A DNA stretch of 64,000 nt from Enterobacteria phage GEC-3S. The notes under the pieces were generated by a model that saw nothing but the letters and a program-made list of their open reading frames with translations, did no database searches and had not been told where the DNA came from. This document shows positions 7,498 to 40,829 of the stretch, in pieces. The stretch lies in sequence record HE978309; one strand, written 5' to 3'. The translations under genes and the position numbers were made by a program. Positions within the stretch are counted from its first letter, which is position 1; each line of letters starts with the position of its first letter.

Positions 7498-8257
7498 TGT
7501 CTCAATAAAACTTTATGCTGTTAATAACGTAACTAGCATGATTGATGCCATCTATAAGGAAGTTCCTTTATGGAAACCTACTATAAAGGGTGATAACGTT
7601 GTTATTCCTCGTTGTCCGTGGGTTAGTACCATAAATGACTATATGGATTTTGTGAGGGCATACGGGCAAAGCGTAGAAACAGAGTCTTTCGTGTATTGCT
7701 GGGAAGATTTTGATGGTATAACGATAGCTGGACACGATACAATATTAAAAAATGAGCCAATACCAGCTATAATCTGTGAGCCTAGACTCATGGGGCAATT
7801 TATTGATATGTCGCCTAATCTGATGGTTTTTAATTTCGAGTGGCAGACTAAGAGCAATGCTAAAGTTAAAAATTCATTTAGCAATGTGACATACACAACT
7901 ATTGATTTTGTTACTAAGCAGTATAATAAAATTATTGTTGGTAATGGGGATAACATTGCACACTTTGTTCATGGTGGCGCTTATGGCGATTTAACTTATA
8001 AGAATGCGTTTTTGGAAGGTTCTAAACTTGCCACAATAGAACAATATGATTCATATGCTACCGCCGTGTGTCACGGTAATTTTTCGTTGCGCCCCGGTAT
8101 GGTTATTCGATTCTTTGATGAGAAGCAACAAGCACGCAATGATTTTATTGTTGACGAAGTGGTGCATGAAATTAGCCGAGAGCAATCATTAACTCACCTG
8201 TATATGATCGGTAACAGCGAAGAATTACAGGAAGTCAAATTTGAAGGTAAGATATAA
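7475..8257 (+). CDS. 27: gp27 baseplate hub protein (short form, 260 aa)
   Basis: N- and C-terminal similarity to T4 gp27 (PNVSIKL..., ...VDEVVHEIS...THLYM); synteny between 51 and 28. Confidence 0.7.
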   Translation: MQRTGFPNVSIKLYAVNNVTSMIDAIYKEVPLWKPTIKGDNVVIPRCPWVSTINDYMDFVRAYGQSVETESFVYCWEDFDGITIAGHDTILKNEPIPAIICEPRLMGQFIDMSPNLMVFNFEWQTKSNAKVKNSFSNVTYTTIDFVTKQYNKIIVGNGDNIAHFVHGGAYGDLTYKNAFLEGSKLATIEQYDSYATAVCHGNFSLRPGMVIRFFDEKQQARNDFIVDEVVHEISREQSLTHLYMIGNSEELQEVKFEGKI

Positions 8258-8775
8258 TGACAGAAACTAAACCTATGTTAAAATTTGTTGTTCCTGTAAA
8301 AAAATTAGATATAAACGGGAAACATATCAAGATCCCAAAAATGGGGATTAAGCAACATCGATTATTAAAAGATGTTCGTAGCTGTGATGAAACATTAAAG
8401 ATTCTTCTTGATTCAATCTGTCCTGGGTTAAACGCTGCCGAGTCTGAATTGGTTATGCTTAACCTTTGTGCGTTTAATGGTAAGTGTCTGGAAGAAAAGG
8501 ATGGTCTTAAGCTGTCTGATGTGTATATTTGTACAGAGACTGAATTTACTTTAAATGGTAAAGTCTTTAAATTTAAAAATCCAATGTATACTTCTGACCC
8601 CATTATCGATGACGCTGATTTCTTGAGTCATCATTATCACGATCCTAGTGTAGACTTCCATGATTTCCCAGCTTTTATTATGGATTGGGCTACAGGATTA
8701 AGAAAAACTATTGCACTGGATACACCGGAAGGTACTATCTATGGTGGAATTAACATATTGGATCGCCTATCATGA
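8257..8775 (+). CDS. 28: gp28 baseplate hub distal subunit
   Basis: 172 aa, synteny, translationally coupled to 27 and 29. Confidence 0.7.
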   Translation: MTETKPMLKFVVPVKKLDINGKHIKIPKMGIKQHRLLKDVRSCDETLKILLDSICPGLNAAESELVMLNLCAFNGKCLEEKDGLKLSDVYICTETEFTLNGKVFKFKNPMYTSDPIIDDADFLSHHYHDPSVDFHDFPAFIMDWATGLRKTIALDTPEGTIYGGINILDRLS

Positions 8776-36943: not shown

Positions 36944-37011
36944 ATTACCTCACTTCATATTTTAGCAGGAACAAGTTTATCCTCCATATTGGGGGCTTTC
37001 GCCCCCTTTGT

Positions 37012-38235
37012 TTATACTGCCATTTGAGCGGTGATCGCTGGATGGCTTTGATAGTTGTGAATTTTAAAATCTTTCGGAGTCTTTGTCAATACCTCATCTA
37101 AAGATTTAAATTCCGGCAACTCAATTGTTGGTTTATCAAACGGAACACGGCTTAACTGTTCCATAACTTGATCAAAATGGTTTTTGTAAATGTGGCAATC
37201 CCCACACTGATAAACCAGTTCGCCAACTTCTAACCCGCAAATCTTCGCGATGATATGCGTTAACAGTGCATAGCTCGCTACGTTGAACGGATTCCCTAAA
37301 AAGAGATCATTCGAACGCATGAAAAATAAACAACTCAATTTGTTGTCGTTGGAAACATAAAACTGTACCATCGGATGACATACACCTAACACAGCATTAT
37401 GCGTTTCCTGTACGTTCCATGAATCAATGATAATACGACGACTATACGGATCATTCTTGATCATGTCAATAACTTTTTGTAACTGGTCTTCCCAAATCTT
37501 CGGGCGATAGACATATTCTTCATCGTCTTTAGTGCTTGATGTGTCTACGTCCATACTAACAAACATCGTGGTATCCGGTGCTATAATATCCCCACCCAGA
37601 TAATCACTATCAAGCAGATAACCGAAATAACCATCATCTACCCATTCCTGGAATCCCCACAAGCAATATGCATCATTAACAAAATTAGATTGAGTCTTCC
37701 AGTGGTCTGCTACCAGAATATAATCAAACTCTTCATAACGCATACCACGCCAGATAGCACATAAACGGTCTTCTGTGTCATTGGTTGGCGTAAAGTCTTC
37801 TACCCACGGGTGCTTAAATGTATGTGTATATTTGCTCTTAACGCGCTTAATTTTGATTTCACCATGTGGATGAATCGGTTTGCGTCGCCACGCCATACCA
37901 TACATATTGCCGACATTATAACCATTGAATCGCAAGGGATTCTTTTCTTTCATATCAAGACAGTTGCCGCGCCAAATATCAAAGGCTTCCTCGTCAAACT
38001 TGCCGCGTGTAATTTCCTGTAAGCGACGGCGGTCAAGTGATCCCTCCATAAACCATAGCAATTCGCCAATCACAGAGGCTGTAGCCATCTTTTTAGTGGT
38101 CAGTAATGGGAAACCCTTGCTTAAATCAATTCGCATCTCTGCGCCGAATTTAGAGAGCGTACCTACCCCCGTGCGGTCTTCACGAGGACAGCCATTATCA
38201 AGAACATCACGCAACAGTTTCAAATATTCTTTCAT
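37012..38235 (-). CDS. td: thymidylate synthase with a large internal insertion
   Basis: 407 aa; conserved DRTGVGT, catalytic CHPMVQFYV, SNDLFLGNPFNVASYALL; roughly 120 extra residues between YGMAWRR and DPYSRRII; no intron. Confidence 0.85.
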   Translation of the reverse strand: MKEYLKLLRDVLDNGCPREDRTGVGTLSKFGAEMRIDLSKGFPLLTTKKMATASVIGELLWFMEGSLDRRRLQEITRGKFDEEAFDIWRGNCLDMKEKNPLRFNGYNVGNMYGMAWRRKPIHPHGEIKIKRVKSKYTHTFKHPWVEDFTPTNDTEDRLCAIWRGMRYEEFDYILVADHWKTQSNFVNDAYCLWGFQEWVDDGYFGYLLDSDYLGGDIIAPDTTMFVSMDVDTSSTKDDEEYVYRPKIWEDQLQKVIDMIKNDPYSRRIIIDSWNVQETHNAVLGVCHPMVQFYVSNDNKLSCLFFMRSNDLFLGNPFNVASYALLTHIIAKICGLEVGELVYQCGDCHIYKNHFDQVMEQLSRVPFDKPTIELPEFKSLDEVLTKTPKDFKIHNYQSHPAITAQMAV

Positions 38236-38476
38236 CCCACATCACCTTTTTCTTGTTGATTGCTTTCTTACGCAGTTTTGCTACTGTCTCGTCAATATCG
38301 ATAAAGACAACGCCACGGTCGAATATAGTAGCAGGTCTTGAGATATCGCTATTTTCTTGCACAGGAAGCCATGATGCGCTCGCTTCATCATAGAGATATT
38401 GTAAACCGTAATAATCTACGGCTACTGCGTAGTTTTCACTGGTAGCCGTCCATAATTGAATAATACCGACTTTCAT
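38207..38476 (-). CDS. hypothetical protein (89 aa)
   Basis: ORF track 38207..38503; start MKVGIIQLW coupled (TAATG) to the upstream mini-ORF. Confidence 0.45.
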   Translation of the reverse strand: MKVGIIQLWTATSENYAVAVDYYGLQYLYDEASASWLPVQENSDISRPATIFDRGVVFIDIDETVAKLRKKAINKKKVMWDERIFETVA

Positions 38477-38568
38477 TATTGTTCCCGTCCGCAATGTAAG
38501 CACCGACTACCAGCAAACATCAAAGATTCACCACAATGTTTGCACTCATAATCTGTAAGAATTTTCAT
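38476..38568 (-). CDS. zinc-ribbon mini-protein (30 aa)
   Basis: MKILTDYECKHCGESLMFAGSRCLHCGREQ; AAGAAGGCG RBS; coupled to the frd stop. Confidence 0.35.
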   Translation of the reverse strand: MKILTDYECKHCGESLMFAGSRCLHCGREQ

Positions 38569-38569
38569 G

Positions 38570-39139
38570 TTACGCCTTCTTACGTTCTAAAATTTGTTCG
38601 CTGATCAGGTAATTATCAAGGAAGTAATTATGTTCTTCTTTGGTTACAAAGTCAAAATACAATTCCTGAATCATTTCCTTAGAGATACCAACATCATATT
38701 CAAATGGATCGTTGATCCCTGAACGTTGAACATACGTTAACACAATACGGTCCGCAAAGTCAACCGCTTTTTCAATCAGGGAAGGTCCGCCGATAACACT
38801 TACCAAACCTTGCGTTTTCTCCAGGACTTTTAACAGATCCTTTAATTCAATTCCAGTATACACATTAGGCTGGTCGCCGTTTTTGGCTTTCGGTGTCGGC
38901 TTGCTGGCATCGGTACTAATAACCACATTAAGACGACCTTCCAGTGCTTTAGGGAGACTTTCAAAGGTATTACGTCCCATTACAACCGCCGCAAGATCAA
39001 CATCTCCCATAGTGCGCATTTTAAAGTTTTCCATGTCCTTTTTAATTGGACGCCCCCACGGTAAACCGCCTTTAAAACCAAAAGACCATTTTTCATCTGA
39101 CATTTTAGTGTCACCAATAGCAAATACACATTGAATCAT
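38570..39139 (-). CDS. frd: dihydrofolate reductase
   Basis: 189 aa; GLPWGRPIKKDMENF...VVMGRNTFESLP DHFR motifs. Confidence 0.85.
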   Translation of the reverse strand: MIQCVFAIGDTKMSDEKWSFGFKGGLPWGRPIKKDMENFKMRTMGDVDLAAVVMGRNTFESLPKALEGRLNVVISTDASKPTPKAKNGDQPNVYTGIELKDLLKVLEKTQGLVSVIGGPSLIEKAVDFADRIVLTYVQRSGINDPFEYDVGISKEMIQELYFDFVTKEEHNYFLDNYLISEQILERKKA

Positions 39140-39154
39140 AATATAAATCTCCCA

Positions 39155-39484
39155 TCAAATCAGTTTGAAATAGTTTTCGTTTACATTTTCTTCTGTGATT
39201 GCTGTCTTAAATTCTTGACCGTTATCCGGTGTGATGAAATAACGGTCAGAATAATCACGAAAACGTTTTAAGTGAGATACCCCAACATTAACACCATTTT
39301 CCCAAAAACGAAAGGTAATCATTTTTGGTTCATATCGATAGTCGCTGGTTAACACAGTACCATCACCGCGACGGGCTTCATAAACCGTAATACATTCACG
39401 ATTAGCGGCTTTAAGGCATTCTTCAATAGTGCCGCATGAGATAATACTTACTTTTTCATCTACGATTTGTTCTACAGTCCACAT
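39155..39484 (-). CDS. hypothetical protein (~109 aa)
   Basis: ORF track 39155..39517; the first ATG lies inside the promoter -10; second ATG has GAGAGGAT RBS. Confidence 0.45.
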   Translation of the reverse strand: MWTVEQIVDEKVSIISCGTIEECLKAANRECITVYEARRGDGTVLTSDYRYEPKMITFRFWENGVNVGVSHLKRFRDYSDRYFITPDNGQEFKTAITEENVNENYFKLI

Positions 39485-39512: not shown

Positions 39513-39554
39513 TGCATTATACACTATTGCGTTACGCTGTCAACTCTTTTTCAA
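39513..39554 (-). promoter_or_regulatory. early promoter (sigma70-like)
   Basis: TTGACA, about 16 nt, TATAAT. Confidence 0.5.
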
Positions 39555-40710
39555 AAGATTTTACGATATACATGATGGTGCTCAATTCGGACGGCGCTAC
39601 TGTCTCTGTGTAGCCATCCGGCATATCTTCTTTCGAGATATAGGAAGTTTTACCTTTCATTGCTTCCTTGATTTTGTTCTCTAATTCTAAGATCTTTTGA
39701 CCGTCTTGTAAAGTCAATTCATAAAAGATCTCATGATCGAACTTTGAAACACGAGATTGGTTTCTCATGCGCTCATGTGTTTCTTTGTTTGTTATTCCAA
39801 ATTTCACGCCAACAAAGGAATCATTGTTGGTTAATTTCTGTATATAAAGAGTTCCTGTCTTTAATGCCTGATAACCATGCTTAGAACACAACGGGCAGCG
39901 TGTTCCGCGATTAACAAAATTATCAATAGTTACATCCCATTCATGGTTACGTTCGCATGTCAGAAGTATTCTTGTTAATGCACCTTTCCACTTTCCTGAA
40001 ATCCCAATAAATTTTAGTCTGTTGGTTTCGCATATTTTTTCAATTTGTTTTAATCGGTCACTTTTTGTTATTGGTGCTGTTCCGCTACATTTGCGACACC
40101 GACGACCTAGTTTGAACTTATCATAACTTTGTTCGTAAATGTGATTATTAGGACACTCAAATTTAAGTTTAGTTTTTGTTCCTCTCCATTCCCCAATTAT
40201 ACCCAAAAATTTATAATCTCCTTTATTTTCATTTATATAAGATAAGGAATCTTCTTTATCATGCATCTTGCCCCCGTTACATAAAGGACATCTTGTTTTT
40301 TGATGAATGAAATCTGTATATGTTGGTTGGTATGTGTGTCCGTTTGTACAGTTCATAATGAGTCTTGTTCTGCTATTTTTATACTCCCCACCAACAAAAC
40401 CAACAAATACATCGTTTGTTTCTTGTTTTATTCTTTCTATCACATTGTTTGGGTTTAATCTTTGAGAATCAACCACACATTTCTTACACGAAACTTTTTT
40501 CCTGATATTTGCTAGAGTTGATGTGTATTCATGCTTGTTATTACATAATATAAGAGCTTTTGTTTTGAGACCAGACCATTCTCCAACAAACCCCATGAAA
40601 GAATAACCAACTTCCAAACATGATTTTTTTACAACATTTTCCCAATAGAAGGGAGTTTTCGTGTTTCCTTTTATTTCTATACGAATCTCATGTGCTTGAC
40701 GTACTAACAT
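39532..40710 (-). CDS. protein with four zinc-ribbon repeats and a C-terminal T5orf172/GIY-YIG-like domain
   Basis: ORF track 39532..40755; start MLVRQAHEIR with GGAGGA RBS; four repeats of G..G.W.G..TK....C...H.Y...(F)....RC..C; C-terminal GTLYIQKL...VGVKFGITN. Confidence 0.55.
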   Translation of the reverse strand: MLVRQAHEIRIEIKGNTKTPFYWENVVKKSCLEVGYSFMGFVGEWSGLKTKALILCNNKHEYTSTLANIRKKVSCKKCVVDSQRLNPNNVIERIKQETNDVFVGFVGGEYKNSRTRLIMNCTNGHTYQPTYTDFIHQKTRCPLCNGGKMHDKEDSLSYINENKGDYKFLGIIGEWRGTKTKLKFECPNNHIYEQSYDKFKLGRRCRKCSGTAPITKSDRLKQIEKICETNRLKFIGISGKWKGALTRILLTCERNHEWDVTIDNFVNRGTRCPLCSKHGYQALKTGTLYIQKLTNNDSFVGVKFGITNKETHERMRNQSRVSKFDHEIFYELTLQDGQKILELENKIKEAMKGKTSYISKEDMPDGYTETVAPSELSTIMYIVKSFEKELTA

Positions 40711-40737
40711 ATTTTTATCCTCCGTTGTTTCGATGAT

Positions 40738-40779
40738 TGTATTATACATTACCACATCAGCATGTCAATACATTTTCAT
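40738..40779 (-). promoter_or_regulatory. early promoter (sigma70-like)
   Basis: TTGACA, 16-17 nt, TATAAT, directly after the gp32 terminator. Confidence 0.5.
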
Positions 40780-40789
40780 AAAATTTTAG

Positions 40790-40820
40790 GCAATAAAAAA
40801 GCCTTCCCGAAGGAAGGCTT
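40790..40820 (-). terminator. rho-independent terminator after gene 32
   Basis: hairpin AAGCCUUCC-UUCG-GGAAGGCUU then UUUUUUAU. Confidence 0.55.
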
Positions 40821-40829
40821 TAAAATTCA

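What the first reader, a model, noticed from the sequence alone, without database searches (positions are those of the whole stretch)
38207..38572. frd and td separated by two coupled small ORFs, one a 30-aa zinc-ribbon peptide
frd and td are adjacent and overlapping in T4. Here the frd stop is followed by a 30-aa CxxC...CxxC ORF and then an 89-aa ORF, both joined by TAACATG/TAATG overlaps, before td. Tight coupling suggests they are made in proportion to the two folate enzymes.
Basis: seen in the sequence. Interest (0 to 1): 0.3.

Follow-up and report, generated by a model that had tools for sequence, protein, structure and literature searches.

The report
Two real small genes between frd/td
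Between the dihydrofolate reductase and thymidylate synthase genes of this RB49-like phage lie two real, conserved small genes: a 30-residue four-cysteine peptide found in about 280 phage genomes and often left unannotated, and an 89-residue protein limited to RB49-like phages. Nothing ties either one specifically to the folate enzymes, and both were already on record as hypothetical proteins.

Summary
All genes are on the minus strand. frd (38570-39139) ends TAA. One base later the 30-aa CxxC-x10-CxxC ORF starts (38476-38568). Its TAA overlaps the ATG of an 89-aa ORF (38207-38476), whose last 29 nt overlap td (37012-38235).

The window is a Krischvirus (RB49-like). RefSeq RB49 annotates both ORFs (RB49p237, RB49p236), and both are PHROG families of unknown function. 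One paper deleted ORF237 for lack of support.

Both ORFs are under frame-specific purifying selection: dN/dS is 0.016 for the 30-aa ORF and 0.27 for the 89-aa ORF.

The 30-aa peptide has full-length homologues in roughly 220 other T4-like phages of enterobacteria. In every retrieved locus that contains frd (26), it lies 0-700 nt upstream of frd, usually with a stop/start overlap onto the next gene. It also occurs in two Klebsiella podophages (Drulisvirus) between helicase and DNA polymerase; the one examined in full has no frd or td.

The 89-aa protein is confined to Krischvirus plus two metagenomic relatives, where it sits between frd and td without the mini-ORF. Its predicted fold matches nothing known.

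Co-expression with frd and td is plausible. A functional link to the folate enzymes is not supported. Function remains unknown, and interest is low to moderate.

The parts
38570..39139 (-). frd, dihydrofolate reductase (189 aa). Its last codons carry the GAAGG Shine-Dalgarno sequence (38575-38579) for the mini-ORF.
   Evidence: Pfam DHFR_1 E=4e-21 and PHROG 316. Junction AGAAGGCGTAACATG is kept in 9 of 10 Krischvirus sequences; one has GGT.
38476..38568 (-). Mini-ORF, 30 aa, C9xxC12-x10-C23xxC26. Equivalent to RB49p237/ORF237, PHROG 17317.
   Evidence: PHROG 17317 E=5e-22, full length. dN/dS 0.016 within Krischvirus. Family-wide pS 0.77 against pN 0.21, with the four Cys invariant. tblastn: 299 phage records at E<=10 and 281 at E<=0.01.
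38207..38476 (-). ORF89, 89 aa. Equivalent to RB49p236, PHROG 16012. Its ATG overlaps the mini-ORF stop (TAATG) and its 3' end overlaps td by 29 nt.
   Evidence: PHROG 16012 E=4e-60. dN/dS 0.27. Only Krischvirus-type homologues among 5.8e9 proteins, plus two ~32%-identical relatives among 1.8e9 representatives. AF2 model pLDDT 76: six beta strands plus a C-terminal helix.
37012..38235 (-). td, thymidylate synthase (407 aa, with a ~130-aa insertion). It has its own strong Shine-Dalgarno sequence, AGGTGAT, at 38241-38247 inside ORF89.
   Evidence: Pfam Thymidylat_synt E=2e-83, match split in two. Sequence read.
39516..39543 (-). Perfect sigma-70-type promoter (TTGACA-16-TATAAT) with a GCGTAACGC mini-hairpin in the spacer (PeSL-like). 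Presumed start of the ORF109-frd-mini-ORF89-td transcript.
   Evidence: 12/12 consensus match. Sequence. PeSL concept from PMC2839356.
39155..39484 (-). ORF109 (RB49p239-like, PHROG 16287), first gene of the presumed operon.
   Evidence: PHROG 16287 E=5e-73 over residues 12-120 of the mechanical ORF. RefSeq start. SD GAGAGG followed by ATG.
38436..38516 (-). Predicted mRNA hairpin. A 13-bp stem pairs mini-ORF codons 18-22 with ORF89 codons 10-14 and encloses the ORF89 SD and AUG.
   Evidence: MFE -22.4 kcal/mol, z=-2.07, 9 of 200 shuffles as stable. Kept in the main Krischvirus clade (z -1.3 to -4.0) but not in other genera. Weak evidence.

Best explanation
Both ORFs are genuine protein-coding genes of a Krischvirus early operon with the order PeSL-type promoter, ORF109, frd, mini-ORF, ORF89, td.

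The mini-ORF has its own Shine-Dalgarno sequence (GAAGG, 6 nt upstream of its ATG) inside the last frd codons. Ribosomes finishing the mini-ORF then re-initiate at the overlapping TAATG of ORF89. In the main Krischvirus clade this may be helped by melting of a hairpin that encloses the ORF89 start. td has its own strong Shine-Dalgarno sequence inside ORF89.

The 30-aa product is most likely a free-standing single zinc-ribbon micro-protein with Zn bound by Cys9, Cys12, Cys23 and Cys26. It would act in trans as a small binding module on a protein or nucleic acid during early infection of enterobacteria. It is a portable micro-gene of the variable gene 32-frd-td region of T4-like phages. It has changed position relative to frd and has also been transferred to Klebsiella podophages. 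Its neighbourhood to frd therefore reflects inherited gene order, not a role with DHFR or TS.

ORF89 is a lineage-restricted small beta-rich protein of unknown function and is the older resident of the frd-td slot in this lineage.

Status of each step:
- Shown: coding status, gene order, conservation and distribution.
- Inferred: transcription unit, translational coupling, zinc binding.
- Speculative: action in trans on a binding partner.
For: Coding status:
- dN/dS is 0.016 (mini-ORF) and 0.27 (ORF89), against about 1 in the off-frames. frd and td in the same sequences give 0.15 and 0.10.
- Across genera, synonymous sites of the mini-ORF are saturated (pS 0.77) while pN is 0.21. Invariant residues are encoded by up to 5 different codons.

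Family and distribution:
- Both ORFs give full-length PHROG matches.
- tblastn with the Krischvirus peptide finds 299 phage records at E<=10, with 54 of 57 Krischvirus records 100% identical. tblastn with the podophage form finds 281 records at E<=0.01.
- Invariant residues are I3, L4, D6, E8, C9, K10, C12, G13, L16, C23, C26 and Q30.
- In all 26 non-Krischvirus T4-like loci retrieved that contain frd, the mini-ORF lies from -4 to 698 nt upstream of frd. It usually ends ...ATGAGGCARGGnTAATG, so its last codons form the SD and start overlap of whatever gene follows.

Portability:
- The peptide lies between DnaB-type helicase and family A DNA polymerase in Drulisvirus IME308, Kpp-9 and 4 metagenomic contigs.
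- IME308 lacks frd, td and ORF89.

ORF89 is the older resident of the slot: the order frd-ORF77/78-td, without the mini-ORF, is found in two contigs whose frd is 60% and td 71-82% identical to the window's.

Operon: one perfect promoter lies upstream and nothing above chance lies between the genes. No Rfam RNA is present.

Hairpin: plus one C-G to U-A double change in phage GoldenSnicker.
Against: - There is no direct evidence of translation, zinc binding or any binding partner.
- The best Pfam zinc-ribbon score (22.5 bits) is just under its gathering cut-off (23.4).
- A PDB profile search gives only generic knuckle matches (best E=0.005).
- No structure model of the 30-mer could be made.
- The mini-ORF stays within about 700 nt of frd in every T4-like genus examined. 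This is also what a functional link would predict.
- The hairpin is only about 2 sd better than shuffles, and it is absent in the divergent Krischvirus clade and in other genera.
- Arbiol et al. 2010 judged ORF237 unsupported.
- Phage E26 carries a frameshift that destroys the second CxxC. This is either a sequencing error or a sign that the gene is dispensable.
Confidence: 0.55

Rival explanations
1. One reading: the two small proteins are accessory subunits or regulators of DHFR and TS (the phage dNTP-synthesis machinery). Translational coupling would make them in fixed proportion to those enzymes.
For: - The mini-ORF lies within 0-700 nt of frd in every T4-like locus that contains frd.
- In several genera (Marfavirus, Gelderlandvirus, phage MHG19) its stop overlaps the frd start itself.
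- ORF89 homologues always lie between frd and td.
- The junctions are tight.
Against: - Drulisvirus IME308 has the peptide but no frd, td or ORF89.
- T4 and its close relatives have frd and td but neither gene.
- In Kanagawavirus and others, unrelated ORFs separate the mini-ORF from frd.
- The two small genes do not co-occur outside Krischvirus.
- Other genera carry small proteins between frd and td with no detectable relationship to ORF89 (hhalign probability below 1%).
- Overlapping junctions are general among the small genes of these loci.
Confidence: 0.15
2. The mini-ORF works mainly in cis as a short relay reading frame. Its translation delivers ribosomes to, or unmasks, the start of the next gene. 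The peptide itself would be incidental.
For: - Its stop overlaps the next start in most loci, and its last codons encode that gene's SD (ATGAGGCARGG) whatever the downstream gene is.
- In Krischvirus a hairpin pairs its codons 18-22 with ORF89 codons 10-14 around the ORF89 start.
Against: - A relay ORF needs no particular peptide. Here four Cys and eight other residues are invariant, encoded by varying codons while synonymous sites are saturated.
- dS in the mini-ORF (0.15) is similar to its neighbours (0.17-0.20), so there is no extra nucleotide-level constraint.
- The hairpin is not general.
- A peptide function and a coupling function are not mutually exclusive.
Confidence: 0.12
3. The 30-aa ORF is a chance open frame, as concluded when ORF237 was removed from the RB49 annotation. 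On this view only the 89-aa ORF, or neither, is a gene.
For: - Arbiol et al. [quoted passage not shown]
- 15 of 21 Krischvirus rows have no feature under it.
- The CxxC...CxxC pattern alone is not significant in 64 kb.
- Phage E26 has a frameshift in it.
Against: - Frame-specific purifying selection within Krischvirus (dN/dS 0.016; 7 of 9 variable sites at third codon positions).
- The ORF is preserved with its length (30-34 aa) and Cys spacing across many T4-like genera and in podophages, at 47-70% amino-acid identity, with saturated synonymous sites.
Confidence: 0.03
4. The small ORFs are decayed remnants of a mobile element, for example the zinc finger of a homing endonuclease like the one upstream at 39532-40755.
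For: - The 32-frd-td region is a hotspot for mobile endonuclease genes: the CapR-domain ORF here, SegG and I-TevI in T4, and an intron-associated endonuclease in CF-SP2.
- The weakest tblastn hits touch an HNH endonuclease and a primase (E=4-10).
Against: - There is no significant similarity to any endonuclease, in Pfam, PHROGs, NCBIfam, PADLOC or PDB.
- The ORF is a complete, length-conserved unit under strong purifying selection, not a decaying fragment.
Confidence: 0.04

Closest known systems
RB49 RB49p237 / ORF237 (NP_891808.1) and PHROG family 17317
   Same: The peptide is identical, in the same position after frd. It gives a full-length PHROG match at E=5e-22.
   Different: Nothing differs; this is the same gene. 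Its status is disputed. RefSeq keeps it ('predicted by Glimmer'). Arbiol et al. 2010 removed it. Most Krischvirus records listed do not annotate it.
RB49 RB49p236 (NP_891807.1) and PHROG family 16012
   Same: 98% identical 89-aa protein in the same position, with the same 29-nt overlap onto td.
   Different: Nothing differs. No function has been assigned anywhere.
T4 frd-td junction (ATGA overlap)
   Same: Same two enzymes in the same order, followed downstream by nrdA, with tight junctions.
   Different: T4 has no gene between frd and td and no homologue of either small ORF. T4 td carries a group I intron with I-TevI. The td here has no intron but does carry a ~130-aa in-frame insertion.
Small frd-td ORFs of other T4-like genera (Marfa 117+68 aa, PEi26 111+118 aa, CF-SP2 103+93 aa, MHG19 136 aa)
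   Same: They occupy the same slot and are tightly packed or overlapping with their neighbours.
   Different: No detectable relationship to ORF89 (hhalign probability 0.4% or less). The slot holds different families in different genera.
Free-standing mini zinc-ribbon proteins such as archaeal RNA polymerase subunit Rpo12/RpoP (~45-49 aa)
   Same: A very small protein built of two CxxC knuckles. This is the best PDB and NCBIfam match (E=0.005 and 0.013).
   Different: Only the knuckles align, in two separate short pieces. Homology is not established and there is no functional inference.
PeSL-flanked ORFan cassettes of RB49/phi1 (Arbiol et al. 2010, PMC2839356)
   Same: Small genes of unknown function in a variable region of the same phage group. 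A PeSL-like promoter heads this operon.
   Different: The two small genes are not flanked by PeSLs. They sit at coding-to-coding junctions with no promoter of their own.

Membership tests
Cys4 zinc ribbon / zinc-knuckle pair | Two CxxC motifs separated by a short spacer, invariant across homologues | tested here: met
   C9xxC12-x10-C23xxC26. All four Cys are invariant in 15 distinct peptides and 32 distinct nucleotide sequences.
Cys4 zinc ribbon / zinc-knuckle pair | Score above the curated threshold of a zinc-ribbon profile | tested here: not met
   Best hit is Pfam PF10005 Zn_ribbon_DZR_6 at 22.5 bits, against a cut-off of 23.4. All other hits are lower. The peptide is so short that few models could reach threshold.
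Cys4 zinc ribbon / zinc-knuckle pair | Two beta-hairpin knuckles around one zinc ion in 3D; zinc actually bound | not testable with these tools
Metal binding needs an experiment.
PHROG 17317 (phage protein family, unknown function) | Full-length significant match to the family profile | tested here: met
   E=4.8e-22, residues 1-30 on profile positions 1-30 of 31.
PHROG 16012 (phage protein family, unknown function) | Full-length significant match to the family profile | tested here: met
   E=4e-60, residues 1-89 on profile positions 1-89 of 89.
Translationally coupled genes of one operon | Stop/start overlap or near-abutting junctions on one strand | tested here: met
   TAAcATG, TAATG and a 29-nt overlap, kept in all 10 Krischvirus sequences compared.
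Translationally coupled genes of one operon | No promoter or terminator between the genes | tested here: met
   The consensus scan finds only 10/12 matches inside frd and at the td start, with total counts at the shuffle expectation. There are no TATAAATA or MotA-box motifs. This is a consensus scan only.
Translationally coupled genes of one operon | Downstream translation depends on upstream translation | not testable with these tools
   There is only an indirect hint: a hairpin enclosing the ORF89 start, z=-2.07.
Accessory component of the phage DHFR/TS (dNTP synthesis) machinery | Present wherever, and only where, phage frd/td are present | tested here: not met
   Present in Drulisvirus IME308, which has no frd or td. 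Absent from T4, which has both.
Accessory component of the phage DHFR/TS (dNTP synthesis) machinery | Physical or functional interaction with DHFR or TS | not testable with these tools
   No multimer prediction or experiment was available.
Homing-endonuclease remnant | Significant similarity to an endonuclease domain or its DNA-binding zinc finger | tested here: not met
   No such hit in Pfam, PHROGs, NCBIfam, PADLOC or PDB.
Known anti-phage defence or structured RNA element | Match to a PADLOC or Rfam model | tested here: not met
   PADLOC best E=0.029 on one knuckle. Rfam finds nothing credible in 37800-39300.

The most novel reading that the evidence does not exclude
The 30-residue zinc-ribbon peptide is a trans-acting phage micro-effector. 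It would bind one conserved factor of enterobacterial hosts, or a shared piece of the phage replication and nucleotide-supply machinery. It would be useful enough on its own to be kept in about 280 T4-like genomes and to have been captured by Klebsiella podophages. That would make it one of the smallest conserved phage effectors, and one routinely missed by gene callers. In Krischvirus its translation would additionally gate ORF89 through an mRNA hairpin.
Probability: 0.25. Interest if true: 0.55.

Novelty: already known. Interest (0 to 1): 0.25.

Why it matters
The practical value is for annotation. A 30-codon gene that one published re-annotation deleted, and that most deposited Krischvirus genomes listed here omit, is shown by comparative evidence to be real. 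It belongs to a family spread over many genera of T4-like phages and a few podophages. This illustrates how conserved micro-proteins escape phage gene calling. It also offers a very small, easily synthesised candidate for zinc-binding and partner-finding experiments.

The analysis also corrects an expectation drawn from T4. The frd-td junction is a variable slot that different genera fill with different small genes. Adjacency to the folate enzymes should therefore not be read as function. No new mechanism is demonstrated.

Tried and rejected
- **Large protein database, 30-mer:** the search refuses queries under 40 aa, both for the peptide and for its alignment. A 61-aa tandem of two family variants found no candidate. 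That database evidently lacks such short proteins, so distribution had to come from tblastn and DNA-pattern scans.
- **Genome-contig scan:** it gave one spurious Planctomycetota hit without the cysteines. There is no evidence for bacterial copies.
- **AlphaFold2 of ORF89:** with only Krischvirus sequences the model was useless (pLDDT 43). Adding the two distant homologues raised it to 76.
- **Foldseek of that model:** nothing significant against PDB (best E=0.6). Against viral models it found only its own family at E<=0.001, followed by weak hits to unnamed small phage proteins (E>=0.02).
- **PDB profile search for the 30-mer:** only generic zinc knuckles.
- **NCBIfam and PADLOC:** nothing. 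**Rfam:** nothing.
- **hhalign of ORF89** against the frd-td ORFs of four other genera and against T4 frd.1-3 and nrdA.1-2: no relationship.
- **Mini-ORF and ORF89 as one gene split by a frameshift:** the 120-aa 'fusion' annotated in phage E26 comes from a 1-nt insertion that destroys the second CxxC. It is one record out of 57. The distant ORF89 homologues have no zinc-ribbon extension. Rejected.
- **General mRNA structure at the mini-ORF/downstream junction across genera:** median z about -0.3, so not general.
- **ORF109 duplication:** the extra 109-aa ORF in Makalu_003 is unrelated.
- **Literature searches:** no functional study of either gene.
Full report
**1. What is there**

All genes are on the minus strand.
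- frd occupies 38570-39139 (189 aa; Pfam DHFR_1 E=4e-21) and ends with TAA at 38572-38570.
- After one base, an ATG at 38568 opens a 30-codon frame, MKILTDYECKHCGESLMFAGSRCLHCGREQ (38476-38568).
- Its TAA shares an A with the ATG of an 89-codon frame (38207-38476; TAATG).
- That frame runs 29 nt into td (ATG at 38235; 407 aa; Pfam Thymidylat_synt E=2e-83).
- Shine-Dalgarno sequences: GAAGG lies 6 nt before the mini-ORF start, inside the last frd codons. A weak GGGA precedes ORF89. A perfect AGGTGAT lies 5 nt before the td start, inside ORF89.
- In T4, frd and td do overlap by ATGA with nothing between them.

TAACATG is a one-base spacer rather than an overlap. The overlap of ORF89 with td was not mentioned.

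**2. Source and prior annotation**

The region is 97-99% identical to RB49-like phages (genus Krischvirus), with 57 matching records.
- RefSeq RB49 annotates both ORFs as hypothetical proteins: RB49p237 (30 aa, 'predicted by Glimmer') and RB49p236 (89 aa).
- Both are PHROG families of unknown function: 17317 (E=5e-22) and 16012 (E=4e-60).
- Arbiol et al. [quoted passage not shown] Consistent with that, GenBank AY343333 shows one hypothetical protein here while RefSeq shows two.
- 15 of 21 Krischvirus rows have no feature under the mini-ORF.

**3. Are they genes?**

Ten Krischvirus sequences were compared with the Nei-Gojobori method.

| Gene | dN/dS in frame | dN/dS in off-frames |
|---|---|---|
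| mini-ORF | 0.016 | 1.1-2.0 |
| ORF89 | 0.27 | 0.8-0.9 |
| frd | 0.15 | not computed |
| td | 0.10 | not computed |

- In the mini-ORF, 7 of the 9 variable sites are third codon positions.
- Synonymous divergence in the mini-ORF (0.15) is like that of its neighbours. This argues against a nucleotide-level element. Rfam finds nothing.
- Across genera, 32 distinct nucleotide versions of the mini-ORF have saturated synonymous sites (pS 0.77) but pN of 0.21. The off-frames give pS about equal to pN.
- Invariant residues, including the four Cys, are encoded by 2-5 different codons.
- The bare CxxC...CxxC pattern is not significant on its own in 64 kb (1 observed against a mean of 0.27 in shuffles). 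Conservation is what settles the matter.

Both ORFs are real genes, and the published removal of ORF237 does not hold up.

**4. The mini-ORF family**

- tblastn with the Krischvirus peptide finds 299 phage records at E<=10. Of the 57 Krischvirus records, 54 are 100% identical at the peptide level. The rest are full-length 47-67% identical copies in T4-like phages of Klebsiella, Enterobacter, Salmonella, Citrobacter, Serratia, Erwinia, Yersinia and Edwardsiella, plus a few chance hits at the weak end. tblastn with the podophage form finds 281 records at E<=0.01.
- T4 has none and shows no remnant.
- I examined 4 GenBank loci, 22 IMG/VR loci and 8 metagenome loci. In every T4-like locus outside Krischvirus that contains frd (26 loci), the mini-ORF lies upstream of frd, from a direct stop/start overlap up to 698 nt away.
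- It nearly always ends ...ATG AGG CAR GGN TAA TG. Its last codons are thus the Shine-Dalgarno sequence and start overlap of whatever gene follows, which is frd itself in some genera and another small ORF in others.
- Krischvirus is the exception, with the gene downstream of frd.
- A 97%-identical pair of copies occurs in the Drulisvirus podophages IME308 and Kpp-9, and copies occur in four metagenomic contigs (L014-L016, L041). In IME308 and L016, where the neighbours were examined, the gene lies between the DnaB-type helicase and the family A DNA polymerase.
- IME308 has no frd, td or ORF89.
- No profile or structure database gives more than generic zinc-knuckle similarity.

**5. ORF89**

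- Among 5.8 billion proteins, only Krischvirus-type sequences match (14 clusters).
- A profile search of 1.8 billion representatives adds two ~32%-identical proteins of 77 and 78 aa (a third hit is a repeat artefact).
- Both distant homologues lie directly between frd and td on short metagenomic contigs. On those contigs frd is 60% and td 71-82% identical to the window's, and on L036 the td carries the same insertion. There is no mini-ORF at the junction.
- ORF89 is therefore the older resident of the slot, and the mini-ORF was inserted at the frd/ORF89 junction in the Krischvirus lineage.
- With the two distant sequences added, AlphaFold2 gives pLDDT 76 and pTM 0.61: six beta strands followed by a C-terminal helix. 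The last ten residues, which overlap td, are disordered.
- Foldseek finds nothing significant in PDB. In the viral library it finds only its own family at E<=0.001.
- ORF89 shows no detectable relationship to the small frd-td ORFs of other genera or to T4 frd.1-3 and nrdA.1-2.

**6. Expression**

- A perfect TTGACA-16-TATAAT promoter, with a small hairpin in its spacer, lies at 39543-39516 upstream of ORF109. This is the PeSL type described for RB49 and phi1.
- Nothing above chance lies between frd and td, and no late-promoter or MotA-box motif is present.
- A G5/C5 stem-loop follows td.
- The mRNA around the ORF89 start is predicted to form a 13-bp stem. It pairs mini-ORF codons 18-22 with ORF89 codons 10-14 and encloses the ORF89 SD and AUG (-22.4 kcal/mol, z=-2.07).
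- The stem is kept in the main Krischvirus clade. In GoldenSnicker one pair changes from C-G to U-A through an A19V change in the peptide and an S13N change in ORF89. In AV108 the same pair is mismatched.
- No comparable structure is general in other genera. This is weak support for structure-assisted coupling in Krischvirus only.

**7. Interpretation**

- Shown: two conserved coding genes, their positions, the wide distribution and mobility of the mini-ORF, and the narrow distribution of ORF89.
- Inferred: a single early transcript, translational coupling, and zinc binding by four cysteines.
- Speculative: the peptide acts in trans as a small binding module in early infection.

The peptide exists without frd and td. 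frd and td exist without the peptide. The two small genes do not travel together outside Krischvirus.

The steady proximity of the mini-ORF to frd in T4-like phages is most simply inherited gene order in the variable 32-frd-td region. A functional link with the nucleotide or replication module cannot be excluded.

**8. Verdict**

The feature is real but already on record as two hypothetical proteins and two PHROG families. The new points are modest:
- solid comparative support for a 30-codon gene that was dismissed in print and is usually unannotated;
- its family-wide coupling architecture;
- its change of side relative to frd;
- its transfer to podophages.

Function remains unknown.

Noticed in passing
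window 37012-38235 (-), protein residues ~118-249: The thymidylate synthase is 407 aa because of a ~130-aa in-frame insertion. By my own alignment to E. coli ThyA from memory, this lies where the TS small domain is. tblastn against td of every other T4-like genus splits into residues 1-117 and 250-407, and the Pfam match is split too. The same insertion is present in metagenomic contig L036. No domain match was found for the insert.
   Followed up: partly
window 38476-38568 (-); PMC2839356: Arbiol et al. 2010 explicitly removed RB49 ORF237, which is this 30-aa ORF, from the annotation for lack of support. 15 of 21 Krischvirus rows have no feature there. The comparative data here contradict that removal.
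   Followed up: yes
L038 (phage E26, MN655998.1) 708-1070: A 1-nt insertion (AGTCGG to AGTCCGG) shifts the mini-ORF after residue 21 into the ORF89 frame, giving an annotated 120-aa 'fusion' that lacks the second CxxC. This is either a sequencing error or a natural knockout. It is 1 of 57 records.
   Followed up: partly
L047/L048 (Klebsiella phage vB_KpnP_IME308, Drulisvirus) 8238-8336 in the record; also L014-L016 and L041: An unannotated 32-aa homologue of the mini-ORF lies between the DNA helicase and DNA polymerase of a 43-kb podophage that has no frd or td. Its end overlaps the start of the next small ORF by 8 nt. Only 2 of the 281 matching phage records are podophages, which suggests recent lateral transfer among Klebsiella phages.
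   Followed up: partly
window 39532-40755 (-): An endonuclease-like ORF with four CapR-homology repeats (Pfam PF21817, PHROG 681). It is present in RB49, and an ORF of about the same size and position (annotated endonuclease or hypothetical) occurs in AV108, GoldenSnicker and JK32. In Makalu_003 and SSG23 an unrelated 109-aa ORF takes its place. It is a variable, probably mobile gene between gene 32 and the frd operon.
   Followed up: partly
window 40741-40768 (-) and 39516-39543 (-); hairpin 40798-40821 (-): Two perfect 12/12 sigma-70 promoters flank the endonuclease-like ORF. One is preceded by a 10-bp terminator-like hairpin and the other has a GCGTAACGC mini-hairpin in its spacer. They look like the PeSL promoter/stem-loop cassettes described for RB49 and phi1.
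   Followed up: no
window 38436-38516 (-): A predicted 13-bp stem between the mini-ORF and ORF89 coding sequences encloses the ORF89 start (z=-2.07). GoldenSnicker shows one C-G to U-A double change that costs an amino-acid change in each protein, and AV108 shows the mismatched intermediate.
   Followed up: partly
window 36991-37006: A GGGGGC-TTTC-GCCCCC stem-loop lies immediately after the td stop codon and before nrdA. The T-run follows it only on the plus strand, opposite to the genes. Makalu_003 annotates a terminator there on the opposite strand.
   Followed up: no
L003-L006 (Marfa, PEi26, CF-SP2, MHG19), frd-td interval: Other T4-like genera carry one or two small ORFs between frd and td. 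These appear related to each other (shared ...GRF.K.GSEI.F... C-terminal motif, seen by eye) but not to ORF89. T4's direct frd/td overlap is therefore not the general state.
   Followed up: partly
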